From positions 1 to 11,025 of IMG/VR virus record IMGVR_UViG_2541047885_000020: a DNA stretch of 11,025 bases; one strand, 5' to 3'. Shown here in pieces: positions 2,467 to 5,926 of the stretch; the stretch's first letter is position 1; each line of letters begins with the position of its first letter. The notes below the pieces were generated by a model. It searched no databases. It saw nothing but the letters and a program-made list of their open reading frames with translations, and was not told where the DNA came from. Source of the stretch: a virus. Its lineage: Duplodnaviria > Heunggongvirae > Uroviricota > Caudoviricetes. Made by a program: the position numbers and the translations under genes.

Positions 2467-2527
2467 CTTTACCCTCGCTTATCCACATAACTTATTGATT
2501 ACATTGATAACTAAAAAGATCGTCGAT

Positions 2528-2992: not shown

Positions 2993-3793
2993 TTACTTGA
3001 TAAATCCTGCCGCCTTTCCCCGCCTGTATTCCTCCATCAGCCACTGCGCCGGTGTTATTCCCCCAAGGGTGGCGGCGTTAGGCATGCACCCGAAACTTCG
3101 CCCTGGTGGATGGTAAACGTCTCTCCCTGTGTCCGGAGGTGTACTCATGGGCTCTGGCTTTGCCTGTATGCTGATCACCGGATCGGGTATCTGCTGTCCG
3201 GAAGCCACCTTTTTCGCCCAATCATCGAGCAACCTGCGCGCGTGTTTCTCAACCTCAATCTCGCTAAGCTGGCGCTGATACATTGCACGACGGGTATCAC
3301 ATACGACCCAGTACATAACCGGATGCCGCCACGGGAATCTTTCGGGACCACCAGGATATAAACTTTTTTCCTTGCTGTACCGGTGAAACTCCGCCATCAC
3401 ATCGTCAATGGTGACGCCAAGAACCATCTTGCTGTCTTTGCACCACTTGATGAATTGCCCTGGCGACGGCCAGAACGGAGATTCACTGGCGCGGGCGTGG
3501 CGCATACCAGCAGAAACCTGTTCACGGGTACGTATTCCCCCTTCGGCAAACGCAGCAATCCACTGCTGTTTTGCAGCAACTTCCTGCTCTGGCGTCTTCA
3601 GGTTGGTTACCACTGCCGCCGGAAACAGTTGTTTCAGCTGTTTGAAAAGTGCATCAACAAGCCTCTCTGCTGACATGTTCACCACATTGTCATTGTTGAC
3701 GTACTGATGCTCATAACCTGACATGCGAGAAAGGGCTTCTCCGTCACGGTTTTGTATCGCGGTAAAAACGTTGTTCACAAGAAATCCTCCCAC
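2993..3793 (-). CDS. Lambda P-like replication protein (DnaB helicase loader)
   Basis: 266-aa ORF. By recollection of the lambda P sequence it shares FPA..., Q.W..AF.E.GI.T.EQV.AGMR.AR, PF.PSPGQF..WC and LYP....PW motifs in the same order. GTG start at 3793 overlaps the O-like gene end (3775) by 19 bp. Confidence 0.8.
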   Translation of the reverse strand: MGGFLVNNVFTAIQNRDGEALSRMSGYEHQYVNNDNVVNMSAERLVDALFKQLKQLFPAAVVTNLKTPEQEVAAKQQWIAAFAEGGIRTREQVSAGMRHARASESPFWPSPGQFIKWCKDSKMVLGVTIDDVMAEFHRYSKEKSLYPGGPERFPWRHPVMYWVVCDTRRAMYQRQLSEIEVEKHARRLLDDWAKKVASGQQIPDPVISIQAKPEPMSTPPDTGRDVYHPPGRSFGCMPNAATLGGITPAQWLMEEYRRGKAAGFIK

Positions 3794-4590
3794 GCTTCAG
3801 GGCTGTTCCAGTGCGGAACGTTGTTATCAGGTAATGTTGATTGCTTCTGTCTGCTAATCTGCAGCCGCCTTGCCAGCTTCTGCTCCCACTGTGCCTGATG
3901 GTATGCCTTACCCTCAGCCATCCAGTAAATTCTGAACTCTGCAAGTTCCTGTGCCGTTGGCAGACTGTCCAGGTAGATTCCCTGCAATGAGCTTTTCCGA
4001 AGAAAGTCATCTGATGGCTGCCATTGTTCATGCATGACAAATTTGCCTAATTGCCCTGGCCCACCAGGAGGAACAAAGTTATTCATCACGGCGTTGTTTG
4101 CGCCGGGGTCATGAGGCACAGAATCCCCGGTTTTTGTCCTGCTCTCCCTCTCTTGGTTAAATGACTGGTTATATGACTGGTTCTGGATCCCGTTTTTGGG
4201 ATCATTCAACATCCCGTTTTTGGGATCATTCAACATCCCGTTTTTGGGTATATTCCCGTTTTCGGGAACATTACCGTTTTCGGGTTCATTACACCCTTCT
4301 AGGTTGCCTTTAATGTTCCCGTTTTTGGTTATATTAAGAGAGAAAACCCGCACTCTTTTTGTCGCTCCCTTTCTCTCTCCGGTATCTGAAATAAGCCCCA
4401 TTTTCATGAGCGATATAAGCCCGGCCTGCACGGTTTTTTTATTCAGGCAAGTGTCTTTAACGAGGCGTTCTATGCTGGGGTAGCAGAGGTTATATTCATC
4501 GGCTCTGTCAGCCATCGAGAGCAGTATGAGCTTTAATGATGAGCTACCTGGATCTGTCTCCCAGGCCCAATCTGTTGCATGTCTGCTCAT
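3775..4590 (-). CDS. Lambda O-like replication initiator with an iteron-encoded repetitive linker
   Basis: 271-aa ORF; ATG at 4590 preceded by GGAG with 7-nt spacing. N-terminal HTH replisome-organizer-like region (LKLILLSMADRADEYNLCYPSIERLVKDTCLNKKTVQAGLISLMKMGLI); central low-complexity repeats (PENGNVPENGNIPKNGMLNDPKNGMLNDPKNG) encoded by the iteron array; position immediately upstream of the P-like gene. Confidence 0.75.
   Translation of the reverse strand: MSRHATDWAWETDPGSSSLKLILLSMADRADEYNLCYPSIERLVKDTCLNKKTVQAGLISLMKMGLISDTGERKGATKRVRVFSLNITKNGNIKGNLEGCNEPENGNVPENGNIPKNGMLNDPKNGMLNDPKNGIQNQSYNQSFNQERESRTKTGDSVPHDPGANNAVMNNFVPPGGPGQLGKFVMHEQWQPSDDFLRKSSLQGIYLDSLPTAQELAEFRIYWMAEGKAYHQAQWEQKLARRLQISRQKQSTLPDNNVPHWNSPEAWEDFL
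4187..4340. repeat. Iteron array, probable phage origin of replication inside the O-like gene
   Basis: Exact 24-bp tandem repeat ATCCCGTTTTTGGGATCATTCAAC at 4187..4210 and 4211..4234 (internal palindrome ATCCC/GGGAT), then degenerate copies (CCCGTTTTTGGGTAT, CCGTTTTCGGGAACATTAC, CGTTTTCGGGTTCATTAC, CCCGTTTTTGGTTAT) and an A/T-rich stretch to about 4340. Same layout as ori-lambda. Confidence 0.7.
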
Positions 4591-4605: not shown

Positions 4606-4806
4606 TCAGCTTGAGTGTTGTGGGGAGGAATTAATCATGATCTGCTTAATCTCTGCCCTGATGCGACGGTTTGATTCCATGGTGCACTCAACACAGTGTC
4701 CGTTGTAAACCCAGCGTTCACTGTCATGTCCATGCTTACATGGTTTTCCGGTGTAGTAGCGTTTAAGTCCGCGCTTTGCGGCATCAATACGTGTAATGAT
4801 TTCCAT
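4606..4806 (-). CDS. Small Cys/His-rich (zinc-ribbon-like) protein at the cII position, putative regulator
   Basis: ATG at 4806 preceded by AGGG with 6-nt spacing; the longer track ORF starts at TTG 4869 with no ribosome-binding site, so the 66-aa form is preferred. Motif PCKHGH-x10-HCVEC could bind a metal. Function not recognised; not similar to lambda CII as I recall it. Confidence 0.5.
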   Translation of the reverse strand: MEIITRIDAAKRGLKRYYTGKPCKHGHDSERWVYNGHCVECTMESNRRIRAEIKQIMINSSPQHSS

Positions 4807-4904: not shown

Positions 4905-4935
4905 TAGATATGAAAAGACCGCCGGGTGGCGGTCT
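4905..4935 (-). terminator. tR1-like intrinsic terminator between the cro-like and cII-position genes
   Basis: On the - strand: perfect 8-bp stem AGACCGCC/GGCGGUCU with ACCC loop (plus 4916..4935), followed by UUUCAUAUCUAUU. It lies about 20 nt after the cro-like stop and about 100 nt before the next start. Confidence 0.4.
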
Positions 4936-4956
4936 ACAGAGGGTTGTAGCTGGATA

Positions 4957-5187
4957 TCATGAGTAGAAGAAGTATGCCAGTTCTGCTTTTGAGCGCAGCC
5001 ATTGTCTTGTTTTACAGGCTTTAAAAAGCCCATTCATCAATACTTTACCTGGCATTTTGCGCTTACCTGTTAAGTGAGTCTGGATATAGTGACTCGTCGT
5101 TCCGGCTTCCTGTGCGAAGGCTTCACGCTCATCCGGAGTAAGTGCAAGCCAGTGCTTTTTGAAATCGAAATGTCCGTTATCGCTCAT
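4957..5187 (-). CDS. Cro-like small HTH regulator (putative)
   Basis: 76-aa ORF divergent from the repressor gene across a 154-bp operator region; ATG at 5187 with AGG 8 nt upstream. HTH-like segment (DEREAFAQEAGTTSHYIQTHLTG). The call rests mainly on position and size. Confidence 0.5.
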   Translation of the reverse strand: MSDNGHFDFKKHWLALTPDEREAFAQEAGTTSHYIQTHLTGKRKMPGKVLMNGLFKACKTRQWLRSKAELAYFFYS

Positions 5188-5212
5188 AGCTATTGCCTGA
5201 TATTTATTTCAG

Positions 5213-5286
5213 ATAATAAATATTCACCCATAAGGTAACAAAAATCAAGGATAGTTACCTATGAGGTGCATTTACCTGTTGGGTAA
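5213..5286. promoter_or_regulatory. OR-like divergent operator/promoter region with three operator sites
   Basis: Operator-like sites at 5224..5238 (TCACCcataaGGTAA, 9/10), 5255..5269 (TTACCtatgaGGTGC, 8/10) and 5272..5286 (TTACCtgttgGGTAA, perfect). Leftward PR-like promoter on the - strand: -35 TTGTTA (plus 5236..5241), 17-nt spacer, -10 TATTAT (plus 5213..5218). The rightward repressor promoter was not confidently located. Confidence 0.5.
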
Positions 5287-5341: not shown

Positions 5342-5926
5342 ATGAAAAGTATCCAGGACGTCCGCAGGCAAAATCTCAACGACTTGATCGACCGTGAATT
5401 CAATGGTGTTCAGACGCGGATGGCAGAAAAACTTGGAACTCAGGCAAATCTGGTAAACCGCTGGGCTCTTGGCAAGAAGGTTATCGGCGACCAGGTTGCG
5501 CGAAAAATTGAAGCTGCCGCCAATAAACCCCGTAACTGGCTTGATATCGATCGCTCGCTTTCTCAGGAAGGTTTTCAGCCTGTCGGCCCAAGCGACATTG
5601 GTCAGCTGGCGGCTCACAACCTGGAACGCTGGATGAGCGAAAGCCGCGACCTTTCAACGCAGGGAAAACTTCACCGCGCATCCGGCGTCGCCCAGGTGAC
5701 AATCAGTCGCCTGTTAAACAATGAGGTCAGCGTTTCCATTTCCACCCTGGAGAATGTTGCATCCGCATTCGGGCGTCACGGCTATGAATTACTGATTCAC
5801 CCGCACGACCCTGCGACCATCAACTATGACCGCTCGCGCTACGCATTGTTACCCGAAACCGAGAAAGCAAAGATCGAAAGTTACATTGAATTTGTCATCA
5901 ACCAGAACGAAAAAAACAAACAATAA
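5342..5926 (+). CDS. Prophage immunity repressor, XRE-type with two HTH-like segments and no LexA/S24-type autocleavage motif
   Basis: 194-aa ORF between the OR-like and OL-like operator clusters, followed by an intrinsic terminator. HTH-like segments near residues 24-45 (VQTRMAEKLGTQANLVNRWALGK) and 110-135 (LHRASGVAQVTISRLLNNEVSVSISTLENVA). No Ala-Gly/Cys-Gly cleavage site and no GDSM/Ser-Lys dyad visible. Confidence 0.6.
   Translation: MKSIQDVRRQNLNDLIDREFNGVQTRMAEKLGTQANLVNRWALGKKVIGDQVARKIEAAANKPRNWLDIDRSLSQEGFQPVGPSDIGQLAAHNLERWMSESRDLSTQGKLHRASGVAQVTISRLLNNEVSVSISTLENVASAFGRHGYELLIHPHDPATINYDRSRYALLPETEKAKIESYIEFVINQNEKNKQ

What the first reader, a model, noticed from the sequence alone, without database searches (positions are those of the whole stretch)
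4187..4340. Palindromic iteron array inside the O-like gene marks the probable replication origin and encodes a repetitive protein linker
Two exact 24-bp tandem repeats plus four degenerate copies, each built around the ATCCC...GGGAT inverted repeat, are followed by an A/T-rich stretch. This matches the ori-lambda layout, where the initiator binds iterons within its own coding sequence. The repeats translate on the - strand into the low-complexity linker PENGNVPENGNIPKNGMLNDPKNGMLNDPKNG. Iteron sequence and number should set replicon specificity.
Basis: partly seen in the sequence, partly recalled or inferred. Interest (0 to 1): 0.4.

Follow-up and report, generated by a model that had tools for sequence, protein, structure and literature searches.

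The report
Prophage replication origin inside initiator gene
The repeats are real and are most likely the binding sites (iterons) of the replication origin of a phiV10-like E. coli prophage, sitting inside the gene of the initiator that binds them. This layout is well known from phage lambda, but here the initiator belongs to a different protein family.

Summary
The array is confirmed. Six copies of CCC(A/G)AAAACGG lie at 4187-4339 on the coding (-) strand, with 0.35 expected by chance. The gene (3775-4590, -) encodes a winged-helix HTH_36 N-domain, a disordered linker and a DnaT-like C-domain. A lambda-P-like helicase loader gene follows it.

Forty-eight diverged lineages of this initiator all carry the same palindromic motif just after the N-domain. 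The motif often sits in different reading frames and at spacings that are not multiples of 3, and its outer arms covary. It is therefore a DNA element, not a peptide repeat.

Copy number slips in frame among near-identical prophages (4-9 cores, 263-311 aa). Iteron number is therefore not a specificity determinant, and the array is not a recent artefact.

The claimed A/T-rich stretch is weak (55-73% AT, against 78% in lambda). What follows the last iteron is a conserved second tandem repeat, AACCAGTCATAT x2.4 at 4154-4182. It is family-wide and is the least variable part of the gene, so it is the likelier unwinding element.

Verdict: a lambda-style intragenic origin with a non-O initiator, a new variant of a known kind. 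Replication itself is untested.

The parts
3775..4590 (-). Replication initiator gene (271 aa): winged-helix HTH_36 N-domain, repeat-encoded linker and DnaT-like C-domain.
   Evidence: Pfam gives HTH_36 at aa 18-67 (E 1.8e-10) and DnaT at aa 184-252 (E 1.1e-15). It matches phrog_1032 'replication initiation protein' at 2e-108. It is 97-99% identical to phiV10 gp43 and to genes in 424 of 5426 E. coli genomes.
4324..4590 (-). Coding region of the N-terminal winged-helix DNA-binding domain (aa 1-89), the presumed iteron reader.
   Evidence: The AlphaFold2 model built with alignment A5 has pLDDT 83-97 over aa 1-89, with four helices and a beta-hairpin wing. The nearest folds are MarR, ArsR and Fur-type winged-helix proteins and staphylococcal RepA NTD. 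All 37 diverged homologs scanned hit HTH_36.
4316..4331 (-). Iteron 1 in gene order: outlying, degenerate (core ACCAAAAACGGG), 45 bp from iteron 2.
4271..4286 (-). Iteron 2 (core CCCGAAAACGGT).
4253..4268 (-). Iteron 3: perfect palindrome TTCCCG-AAAA-CGGGAA.
4235..4250 (-). Iteron 4 (core CCCAAAAACGGG, outer arm imperfect).
4211..4226 (-). Iteron 5: ATCCC-AAAAAC-GGGAT, within an exact 24-bp unit.
4186..4203 (-). Iteron 6, the last in gene order: GATCCC-AAAAAC-GGGATC with 6-bp arms and two GATC sites.
4151..4185 (-). Second repeat element: AACCAGTCATAT x2.4 directly after the last iteron. It is the proposed unwinding or single-strand-binding element and sits where lambda has its AT-rich tract.
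   Evidence: TRF places it at 4154-4182, period 12. Copy number is 1-3 among close relatives. It has the lowest nucleotide diversity in the gene (pi 0.0016, 2 of 35 sites polymorphic among 71 alleles). Equivalent 9-13-bp GAAC(C/A)/GAATC-headed tandem units follow the last iteron in most of 43 diverged lineages: by eye on the printed sequences in roughly 35 of 43, while TRF scored a tandem repeat in 25 of 43, a few of them unrelated.
4125..4136 (-). Possible seventh, degenerate iteron (ACAAAAACCGGG, 9 of 12 matches) on the far side of the 12-bp repeats.
   Evidence: the repeat finder family D2 and the motif listing. Some alleles read ACAAAAAACGGG and score as a seventh core. This part is weak.
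4054..4323 (-). Linker-coding segment (aa 90-179). It contains the iterons and the second repeat, and all length polymorphism of the gene lies here.
   Evidence: AlphaFold2 gives pLDDT below 50 and no secondary structure for aa 90-210. Alignment A1 shows every indel among 792-870-nt alleles falls in the 24-, 18- and 12-bp arrays. Proteins range from 263 to 311 aa.
3796..4053 (-). Coding region of the DnaT-like C-terminal domain (aa 180-265).
   Evidence: phmmer against PDB sequences matches E. coli and Klebsiella DnaT C-domain chains 9zbt, 6aep, 4ou6, 4ou7 and 2ru8 at E 6e-21 to 2e-19.
2993..3778 (-). Lambda-P-like helicase loader gene, overlapping the initiator stop codon (ATGA).
   Evidence: Pfam Phage_lambda_P at E 1.5e-56 and phrog_109. 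The phiV10 annotation has the same 4-nt overlap.
4916..5241 (-). Upstream context: pR-like promoter (5213-5241), cro-like gene (4957-5187) and tR1-like terminator (4916-4935). The cII-like gene (4606-4806) lies between this stretch and the initiator gene, outside these coordinates. This is the transcription that would run into the origin.

Best explanation
The array is the iteron part of the replication origin of a phiV10-like (Uetakevirus-type, lambdoid early region) E. coli prophage. The origin is embedded in the linker-coding middle of the initiator gene.

Proposed mechanism:
1. Dimers of the initiator's N-terminal winged-helix domain bind each palindromic iteron (half-site about (A/T)TCCCRAA, dyad between the central A's). 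This is inferred.
2. Six sites spaced 18-24 bp (one at 45 bp) assemble an O-some-like nucleoprotein complex. This is inferred by analogy with lambda O.
3. The duplex opens in the adjacent, strictly conserved 12-bp tandem repeat zone (4151-4185). This zone occupies the position of the lambda AT-rich tract. This is inferred.
4. The DnaT-like C-domain, tethered by the flexible linker, recruits the P-like loader with host DnaB and/or holds the single strand. This is inferred from DnaT structures and from gene adjacency.

Because the sites lie in coding DNA, they translate into a low-complexity P-(K/E)-N-G linker. Replication slippage changes copy number in frame. What is shown directly is the sequence anatomy, the family-wide conservation at DNA level and the domain architecture. 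Binding, unwinding and origin activity are not shown.
For: **Location and motif**
- The gene order is lambdoid: repressor, cro-like, cII-like, initiator, P-like loader.
- The motif is confined to the array: 6 hits against 0.35 expected.

**Family-wide conservation**
- All eight phage homologs examined, with 36-58% identical N-domains from Edwardsiella, Vibrio, Acinetobacter, Burkholderia and an uncultured podovirus, carry an array of the same palindromic core. It lies 270-450 nt into the gene, just after the winged-helix domain.
- A protein-blind DNA scan of viral contigs for CCAAAAACGG-N14-34-CCAAAAACGG found 119 loci. Of these, 98 lie in an ORF whose product matches the N-domain HMM.

**DNA element, not peptide repeat**
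- Iterons occupy more than one reading frame in 30 of 43 lineages.
- Spacings of 22, 23 and 25 bp are common.

**Dyad symmetry is maintained by covariation**
- The second flank position is complementary in 36 of 43 lineages across G-C, C-G, A-T and T-A (permutation p below 5e-5).
- The first flank position is complementary in 29 of 43 (p = 0.003).

**The N-domain and iterons travel together**
- The GF-2 initiator is 52% identical to the window protein over aa 1-127 (N-domain plus iteron linker).
- It is 62% identical to the lambda O C-domain over aa 137-280.
- C-domains vary (DnaT, Phg_2220_C, others) while HTH_36 plus the array is constant.

**Constraint among 71 close alleles**
- Third-codon-position diversity is 0.019 in iteron cores against 0.067 in the spacers.
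- The 12-bp zone is the least variable part of the gene.

**Resemblance to characterised origins**
- Lambda iterons (ATCCCTCAAAACGAGGGA, gene nt 349-433) resemble these in motif, in the reading frame of the CC(T/C)-NAA-AAC stretch in lambda iteron 1, and in position within the gene (PMC7466680).
- The P22 origin is annotated at the same place in gene 18.
- The N-domain models as a winged helix, and the repeat-encoded segment is predicted disordered.
Against: - There is no experimental evidence of binding or replication for this phage group, and I found no paper describing a phiV10 origin.
- The canonical AT-rich unwinding tract is missing here. The downstream 47 bp are 55% AT.
- The 18-bp spacings are not in helical phase.
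- The lineages used for the covariation test are phylogenetically related, so the p-values are optimistic. Most were found with the core motif itself, so core invariance is partly an ascertainment effect.
- Low diversity inside tandem repeats can also come from concerted evolution.
- A perfect DnaA box in an 83% AT intergenic stretch at 2479-2516 is an untested alternative or auxiliary site.
Confidence: 0.78

Rival explanations
1. The repeats are only a hypervariable coding minisatellite. Selection, if any, acts on the P-K/E-N-G peptide repeats of a flexible linker, and the DNA has no binding role.
For: In this window all six copies are in the same reading frame and all spacings are multiples of 3. 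Copy number slips freely between near-identical prophages. The encoded segment is predicted disordered.
Against: Across the family the same DNA core appears in two or three reading frames within one gene (30 of 43 lineages), at spacings such as 17, 22, 23 and 25 bp. The palindromic arms covary, which a peptide constraint does not predict. Third codon positions in the cores are more conserved than in the spacers.
Confidence: 0.06
2. The sites are bound by the initiator (or another phage or host protein) for regulation rather than as the start site of replication. Possible roles are autoregulation, copy-number 'handcuffing', or a roadblock to transcription or translation of the replication operon. 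The true origin would then lie elsewhere, for example at the AT-rich intergenic region with a perfect DnaA box at 2479-2516.
For: There is a perfect TTATCCACA box next to the most AT-rich 30 bp of the window. The array has no strong AT-rich tract beside it. Three GATC sites sit in the last iterons and could recruit SeqA.
Against: The iteron array followed by a short tandem repeat, in the middle of the initiator gene, is the layout of the experimentally defined lambda and P22 origins (PMC7466680). The array and second repeat are conserved in 40-odd lineages regardless of downstream gene content. A single DnaA box is near chance level: about 0.08 exact boxes are expected, and 2.5 with one mismatch.
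Confidence: 0.12
3. The + strand hairpins formed by neighbouring half-sites (GGGAT-N8-ATCCC followed by a T run) act as intrinsic terminators of antisense transcription through the initiator gene.
For: The terminator scan reports two such sites at 4197-4216 and 4221-4240 on the + strand.
Against: The stems are weak (6 pairs, 3 G-C). The number of terminator-like hits in the region (4) is no more than in shuffles (3.4 +/- 1.8). The hairpins are a by-product of the 24-bp unit and are absent in family members with other spacings.
Confidence: 0.02

Closest known systems
ori-lambda within gene O of phage lambda and the Stx phages (O protein, four to six 19-bp iterons, AT-rich tract, P loader)
   Same: - The origin sits inside the initiator gene, between the N- and C-domain coding parts, about 260-430 nt from the start codon.
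- The iterons have dyad symmetry and a very similar motif: lambda ATCCCTCAAAACGAGGGA against ATCCCAAAAACGGGAT here.
- Spacing is roughly two helical turns.
- The iterons encode the linker.
- A P-family loader gene follows, and the origin lies downstream of cro- and cII-like genes.
- Iteron number differs between relatives, as with the 4 iterons of lambda and the 6 of Stx phages (PMC7466680).
   Different: - The initiator is HTH_36 plus a DnaT-like C-domain, not Phage_rep_O plus Phg_2220_C.
- BLASTP finds no similarity, and hhalign gives only 49% probability over the HTH and wing.
- The iteron core is one codon (3 bp) shorter.
- There is no 78% AT tract. A 12-bp tandem repeat of 59% AT takes its place.
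Phage P22 ori within gene 18 (annotated rep_origin, NC_002371 32840-32984)
   Same: It has the same position in a 271-aa initiator gene. Iterons are followed by a short tandem repeat (ACAAAAGACAATA x2). Its fourth iteron, GAATCAGTCAAAC, resembles the second-element unit GAACCAGTCATAT here in 10 of 13 positions.
   Different: P22 gp18 is a Phage_rep_O protein and partners with its own DnaB-like helicase (gene 12). Its iterons are direct repeats (GATCGGTAAAAC), not CCC/GGG palindromes.
DopC/DopE of Cellvibrionales and Oceanospirillales (Brezellec et al. 2017, PMC5509034)
   Same: The protein architecture is identical (HTH_36 N-domain plus DnaT C-terminal motif), and the gene sits immediately upstream of a lambda-P-family gene.
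   Different: DopC is chromosomal and domesticated, and it is reported to have no iteron-like sequences and no origin function. The window gene is in a prophage and keeps a full iteron array. It looks like the phage form from which such genes derive.
Iteron plasmids (RK2 TrfA, F RepE, R6K pi; Rep binding to DUE 13-mers, PMC4081077)
   Same: A winged-helix initiator binds repeated sites. Next to these sites is an unwinding element that itself consists of short tandem repeats, one strand of which is bound by Rep.
   Different: Plasmid iterons are 17-22-bp direct repeats outside the rep gene. The Rep proteins have two winged-helix domains and bind iterons as monomers. Here the sites are palindromic and intragenic.

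Membership tests
Lambdoid intragenic origin (ori-lambda type) | The origin repeats lie inside the initiator gene, in the segment between the DNA-binding and loader-recruiting domains. | tested here: met
   The array is at gene nt 259-405. The N-domain ends at about aa 89 and the DnaT-like domain starts at about aa 180. Lambda iterons lie at gene nt 349-433.
Lambdoid intragenic origin (ori-lambda type) | Four or more iterons with internal dyad symmetry, spaced about two helical turns apart. | tested here: met
   There are six copies. Three have 5-6-bp perfect arms and three are partial. Spacings are 24, 24, 18, 18 and 45 bp.
Lambdoid intragenic origin (ori-lambda type) | A roughly 40-bp, roughly 80% A/T tract directly promoter-distal to the last iteron. 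| tested here: not met
   The 47 bp after the last iteron are 55% AT, and the 12-bp repeat zone is 59%, against 78% in lambda. Family-wide, the 50 nt after the array are only 0.11 richer in AT than the gene mean.
Lambdoid intragenic origin (ori-lambda type) | The initiator belongs to Pfam Phage_rep_O (PF04492). | tested here: not met
   The window protein hits HTH_36 and DnaT only, whereas lambda O and P22 gp18 hit PF04492. BLASTP E-values are 0.07 and 0.14. hhalign probability is 49%.
Lambdoid intragenic origin (ori-lambda type) | A helicase loader of the lambda P family is encoded immediately downstream. | tested here: met
   PF06992 at E 1.5e-56, with a 4-nt overlap with the initiator stop codon.
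Lambdoid intragenic origin (ori-lambda type) | The initiator binds the iterons, and the region supports initiator- and loader-dependent replication. | not testable with these tools
   There is only indirect support: co-inheritance of the N-domain and array, arm covariation, and the GF-2 chimera.
   The window and 40-odd diverged lineages show it.
   The window has AACCAGTCATAT x2.4 at 4154-4182. Most of 43 lineages show it: by eye on the printed sequences in roughly 35 of 43, while TRF scored a tandem repeat in 25 of 43, a few of them unrelated.
DopC (domesticated O-like protein, PMC5509034) | HTH_36 N-domain plus DnaT C-terminal motif, next to a P-family gene. | tested here: met
DopC (domesticated O-like protein, PMC5509034) | A resident chromosomal gene without prophage context and without iterons. 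| tested here: not met
   The context is a prophage (repressor, cro, cII, Ead/Ea22 and DUF551 genes) and a six-copy iteron array is present. It is therefore the phage counterpart, not DopC itself.
Plasmid iteron replicons (RepA/RepE/pi/TrfA) | Direct-repeat iterons outside the rep gene, bound by monomers of a two-winged-helix Rep. | tested here: not met
   The sites are palindromic and intragenic, and the protein has a single winged-helix domain.

The most novel reading that the evidence does not exclude
The array is one instance of a large, so far undescribed origin class shared by HTH_36-type phage initiators of Gamma- and Betaproteobacteria. The class has two conserved DNA elements:
- lambda-like palindromic iterons (CCC-N6-GGG with covarying outer arms);
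- directly after the last iteron, a sequence-specific tandem repeat of 9-13 bp (GAAYCAGTCAT-like).

In this reading the second repeat replaces the generic AT-rich tract as the unwinding or single-strand-binding element, by analogy with DnaA-trios or the Rep-bound 13-mers of plasmid DUEs. The phiV10-type HTH_36-iteron-DnaT_C/P pair would also be the phage ancestor form of the bacterial DopC/DopE helicase-matchmaker candidates, and would show that the DnaT-like domain was already present in the phage.
Probability: 0.35. Interest if true: 0.55.

Novelty: new variant of a known kind. Interest (0 to 1): 0.38.

Why it matters
- It assigns a probable origin to phiV10-like prophages, which occur in about 8% of complete E. 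coli genomes and whose records annotate none. phiV10 is used as an O157 reporter and engineering phage.
- It shows that the lambda 'origin inside the initiator gene' design extends to a different initiator family, with a nearly invariant palindromic core.
- It gives a simple sequence signature (winged helix, then CCC-N6-GGG array, then GAAC repeats) for locating origins in many uncultured phages.
- It identifies a phage counterpart, with iterons, of the domesticated DopC/DopE pair proposed as a third bacterial helicase-loader system.
- In practice, the repeat array is a hot spot for in-frame length variation and for assembly breaks.

Tried and rejected
- **AT-rich tract.** I looked for a lambda-grade AT-rich tract with AT content and nearest-neighbour stability profiles. 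None lies next to the array.
- **Direct homology to lambda O or P22 gp18.** BLASTP was negative. hhalign with shallow profiles was inconclusive at 49%.
- **Single-sequence AlphaFold2.** The model was useless (pLDDT 37). The run with database homologs (A5) worked for the N-domain only.
- **Fold search against PDB.** It returned only generic winged-helix proteins with E above 1e-3.
- **The search for related loci.** With 5 sequences it returned only near-identical relatives. These were useful for the copy-number census but not for diversity.
- **Literature.** Searches for a phiV10 origin or iterons, and for the iteron sequence, found nothing.
- **DnaA boxes.** None lies near the array.
- **CRISPR-like array.** Rejected, because there are no unique spacers and the units abut.
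- **Antisense terminators.** Rejected as a by-product of neighbouring half-sites.
Full report
**1. Observation**

Tandem Repeats Finder reports a 24-bp unit (ATCCCGTTTTTGGGATCATTCAAC) x2.6 at 100% identity at 4187-4248. An overlapping 18-bp unit x3.1 lies at 4238-4292, and a separate 12-bp unit (TGGTTAAATGAC) x2.4 lies at 4154-4182. The repeat finder puts six copies in register at 4187, 4211, 4235, 4253, 4271 and 4316, with spacings of 24, 24, 18, 18 and 45 bp.

The 11-nt core CCCRAAAACGG (up to 1 mismatch) occurs six times in the 11,025-bp window. All six are in the array on the - strand. Chance expectation is 0.35, and 0 of 200 shuffles reach six.

Two details are weaker:
- **Inverted repeat.** ATCCC...GGGAT is exact only in the 24-bp copies. 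The last copy is a perfect GATCCC-N6-GGGATC, one 18-bp copy is a different perfect palindrome (TTCCCG-AAAA-CGGGAA), and three copies are partial.
- **A/T-rich stretch.** This is marginal. The best 30-40-bp window is 4307-4346 (70-73% AT, 97th-98th percentile). It overlaps the outlying copy and is on the promoter-proximal side. The gene-downstream flank 4140-4186 is 55% AT, and the lambda tract is 78%.

**2. Context**

On the - strand the window carries a lambdoid early-right operon:
- a pR-like promoter (5241-5213);
- a cro-like gene (4957-5187);
- a terminator (4935-4916);
- a cII-like gene (4606-4806);
- the 271-aa repeat-bearing gene;
- a lambda-P-family gene that overlaps its stop codon.

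A divergent repressor lies at 5342-5926.

The repeat-bearing protein has Pfam HTH_36 (aa 18-67) and a DnaT DNA-binding domain (aa 184-252). It matches PHROG 1032, 'replication initiation protein', at 2e-108. Its C-terminal 86 residues align with the solved C-domain of E. coli DnaT at E 6e-21.

The gene is 97-99% identical to gp43 of phage phiV10 and to prophage genes in 424 of 5,426 complete E. coli genomes. None of those records annotates an origin.

**3. Close relatives**

An alignment of alleles of 792-870 nt shows that every length difference lies in one of three tandem arrays:
- the 24-bp unit, x1-3 plus a terminal partial copy;
- the 18-bp unit, x0-5;
- the 12-bp unit, x2-3.

The flanks are invariant. 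In 80 IMG/VR contigs whose N-domain is at least 99% identical, the protein ranges from 263 to 295 aa with 4-9 iteron cores. The 271-aa form, as in this window, is the commonest. Database proteins reach 311 aa.

The array is therefore old and always present, but its copy number slips in frame. This removes the 'recent slippage artefact' refutation. It also shows that iteron number does not track initiator identity.

Among 71 distinct alleles, nucleotide diversity is as follows:

| Region | Diversity (pi) | Third codon positions |
|---|---|---|
| 12-nt iteron cores | 0.016 | 0.019 |
| Inter-core spacers | 0.037 | 0.067 |
| 12-bp repeat zone | 0.0016 (lowest in the gene) | not computed |

Concerted evolution within repeats may contribute to these low values.

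**4. Distant relatives**

tblastn with the N-terminal 99 aa found phage homologs at 36-58% identity in Edwardsiella, Vibrio, Acinetobacter, Burkholderia, E. coli (PPompW) and an uncultured podovirus. Each of the eight examined has an array of the same palindromic core 270-450 nt into the gene.

A DNA-only scan of viral contigs for two CCAAAAACGG motifs 14-34 nt apart gave 119 loci. Of these, 98 lie in an ORF whose product matches an HMM of the N-domain.

Clustering gave 48 lineages at about 80% N-domain identity. Three results bear on mechanism:
- **Reading frame.** Iterons lie in more than one reading frame in 30 of 43 lineages. Spacings of 22, 23 and 25 bp are common beside 24 and 18. The conserved unit is therefore DNA, not peptide.
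- **Arm covariation.** The bases flanking the CCC/GGG core differ between lineages but stay complementary (GAT..ATC, AGT..ACT, ACA..TGT, ACC..GGT, AGG..C). The second flank position is complementary in 36 of 43 lineages across four pair types (permutation p below 5e-5). The first is complementary in 29 of 43 (p = 0.003). This is what binding by a symmetric dimer predicts. The lineages are related, so the p-values are optimistic.
- **Core conservation.** The core itself barely changes across initiators only 30-60% identical. Any replicon specificity must therefore sit in the outer arms or in the spacing. Part of this invariance comes from ascertainment, because most loci were found by scanning for the exact core motif. 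The protein-ascertained phages show variants such as CCCAAAATTGGG and CCGAAAACGG.

**5. Modularity**

All 37 diverged proteins scanned have HTH_36. C-domains differ: DnaT in 4, Phg_2220_C in 3, and the rest unknown to Pfam. Downstream partners also differ: a P-like loader here and in GF-2, and a DnaB-like helicase in AB1 and AP22.

Edwardsiella phage GF-2 is a natural chimera. Its aa 1-127 (N-domain, iteron linker and start of the second repeat) are 52% identical to the window protein. Its aa 137-280 are 62% identical to the lambda O C-domain. The N-domain and the repeats move as one cassette. This is the pattern expected if the N-domain reads the iterons, as the classical lambdoid hybrid studies established for lambda O (established knowledge).

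**6. Second element**

In the window the last iteron is followed at once by AACCAGTCATAT x2.4 (4154-4182). The same position in the other lineages holds 2-4 tandem units of 9-13 bp headed by GAACC, GAATC or GAACA. Examples are AGAACCAGTCATT x2.5 in Vibrio H20, GAACAGTAG x3.8 in Bcep176 and GGAACAGGAA x2.8 in the EBPR podovirus. By eye on the printed sequences, roughly 35 of 43 lineages show it. TRF scored a tandem repeat in 25 of 43, and a few of those are unrelated repeats.

Periods of 10, 11 and 13 bp again exclude a peptide explanation. The 50 nt after the array are on average 0.11 richer in AT than the gene (n = 43, Wilcoxon p = 1e-10). In this window the excess is only 0.04.

Lambda has its AT-rich tract with AAAAGAA repeats at this position, and P22 has ACAAAAGACAATA x2. 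A degenerate seventh iteron may lie beyond it at 4125-4136.

**7. Protein structure**

With an alignment of database homologs, AlphaFold2 models aa 1-89 as a winged helix (pLDDT 83-97). It gives aa 90-210 pLDDT below 50 with no secondary structure, which is consistent with a flexible linker. The C-domain is under-sampled in the alignment.

Foldseek finds only generic dimeric winged-helix DNA binders (MarR, ArsR, Fur) and the staphylococcal RepA N-domain, all with E above 1e-3.

**8. Comparison with known systems**

- **Lambda.** The layout matches ori-lambda in position within the gene, dyad iterons, linker coding, a P-family loader and operon context. Even the motif is alike (ATCCCTCAAAACGAGGGA against ATCCCAAAAACGGGAT), with the lambda site one codon longer (PMC7466680).
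- **Not an O-family member.** The protein is not in the O family (PF04492). BLASTP to lambda O and P22 gp18 is negative, and hhalign of shallow profiles gives 49% probability over the HTH and wing. Brezellec et al. report an HHpred link between the lambda O N-terminus and HTH_36 (PMC5509034). It works like ori-lambda but fails two membership features: the initiator family and the AT-rich tract.
- **DopC/DopE.** The same paper describes chromosomal DopC/DopE, an HTH_36 plus DnaT_C protein next to a P homolog, with no iterons and no origin function. The window gene pair is the phage form of that architecture with the iterons intact.

**9. Verdict**

The interpretation as an intragenic iteron origin is well supported by comparative evidence but is untested experimentally (confidence about 0.78). 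The corrections are:
- the initiator family is different;
- the AT-rich stretch is weak and misplaced, and a conserved second repeat stands in its place;
- iteron number is polymorphic rather than specificity-defining.

For a specialist this is an expected kind of element in a new guise, so interest is moderate to low for the single locus. The family-wide two-element signature and the DopC link are the parts worth following up.

Noticed in passing
window 2479-2516: A perfect DnaA box (TTATCCACA, + strand) abuts the most AT-rich 30 bp of the window (83% AT). It lies in the intergenic gap between the DUF1064 gene and ORF 2029-2466, about 1.7 kb downstream of the iterons. It could be an auxiliary or alternative initiation or regulatory site.
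   Followed up: partly
window 4186-4227: Three GATC (Dam/SeqA) sites fall within 42 bp, created by the GATCCC/GGGATC iteron arms. The window average is one per 283 bp. Lineages with AGT..ACT arms lack them, so this is not a family feature.
   Followed up: partly
L008 (Edwardsiella phage GF-2) 1501-2343: The initiator is a natural chimera. It has a phiV10-type N-domain plus iterons plus GAAC repeats, fused to a lambda-O-type C-domain that is 62% identical to lambda O aa 156-299.
   Followed up: yes
window 2993-4590, compared with PMC5509034: This gene pair has the same architecture as the domesticated bacterial DopC/DopE (HTH_36 plus DnaT_C next to a P homolog), but in a prophage and with iterons. 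The DnaT-like domain was therefore probably already present in phages before domestication.
   Followed up: partly
L215 (phage P22) 1841-1985: The fourth P22 origin iteron, GAATCAGTCAAAC, matches the second-element unit of this family (GAACCAGTCATAT, or GAATCAGTCATTA in GF-2) in 10 of 13 positions. This may be chance or a shared element.
   Followed up: no
L002 (PP488543 phage BP9, 138 kb 'Vequintavirus') and H4 (PP350014 phage PH444, 115 kb): A phiV10-type replication module sits at the end of records assigned to unrelated large phages. These are probably mixed or chimeric assemblies.
   Followed up: no
L021 and L056 (IMG/VR contigs); P0121-P0237: Some alleles are truncated within or just after the array (182 and 231 aa). 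Many database homologs are N-domain-only fragments of 90-160 aa. Both patterns suggest frameshifts or contig breaks caused by the repeats.
   Followed up: no
L127, L151, L152, L162, L165, L182, L186 (viral contigs): An unrelated recurrent element, CCAAAAACGG-AAAATAAAACGACAATATTTT-CCAAAAACGG, lies outside long ORFs in several contigs. It was picked up by the motif scan and has no link to the initiator family.
   Followed up: no
window 4197-4240, + strand: Neighbouring half-sites form GGGAT-N8-ATCCC hairpins followed by T runs, which score as terminator-like on the antisense strand. This is probably a by-product of the repeat structure.
   Followed up: partly
window 5342-5926: The repressor-like protein has two HTH regions (a YdaS-like match at aa 21-61 and HTH_3 at aa 106-147) and no peptidase S24 domain, so it would not be a LexA-like self-cleaving repressor.
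   Followed up: no
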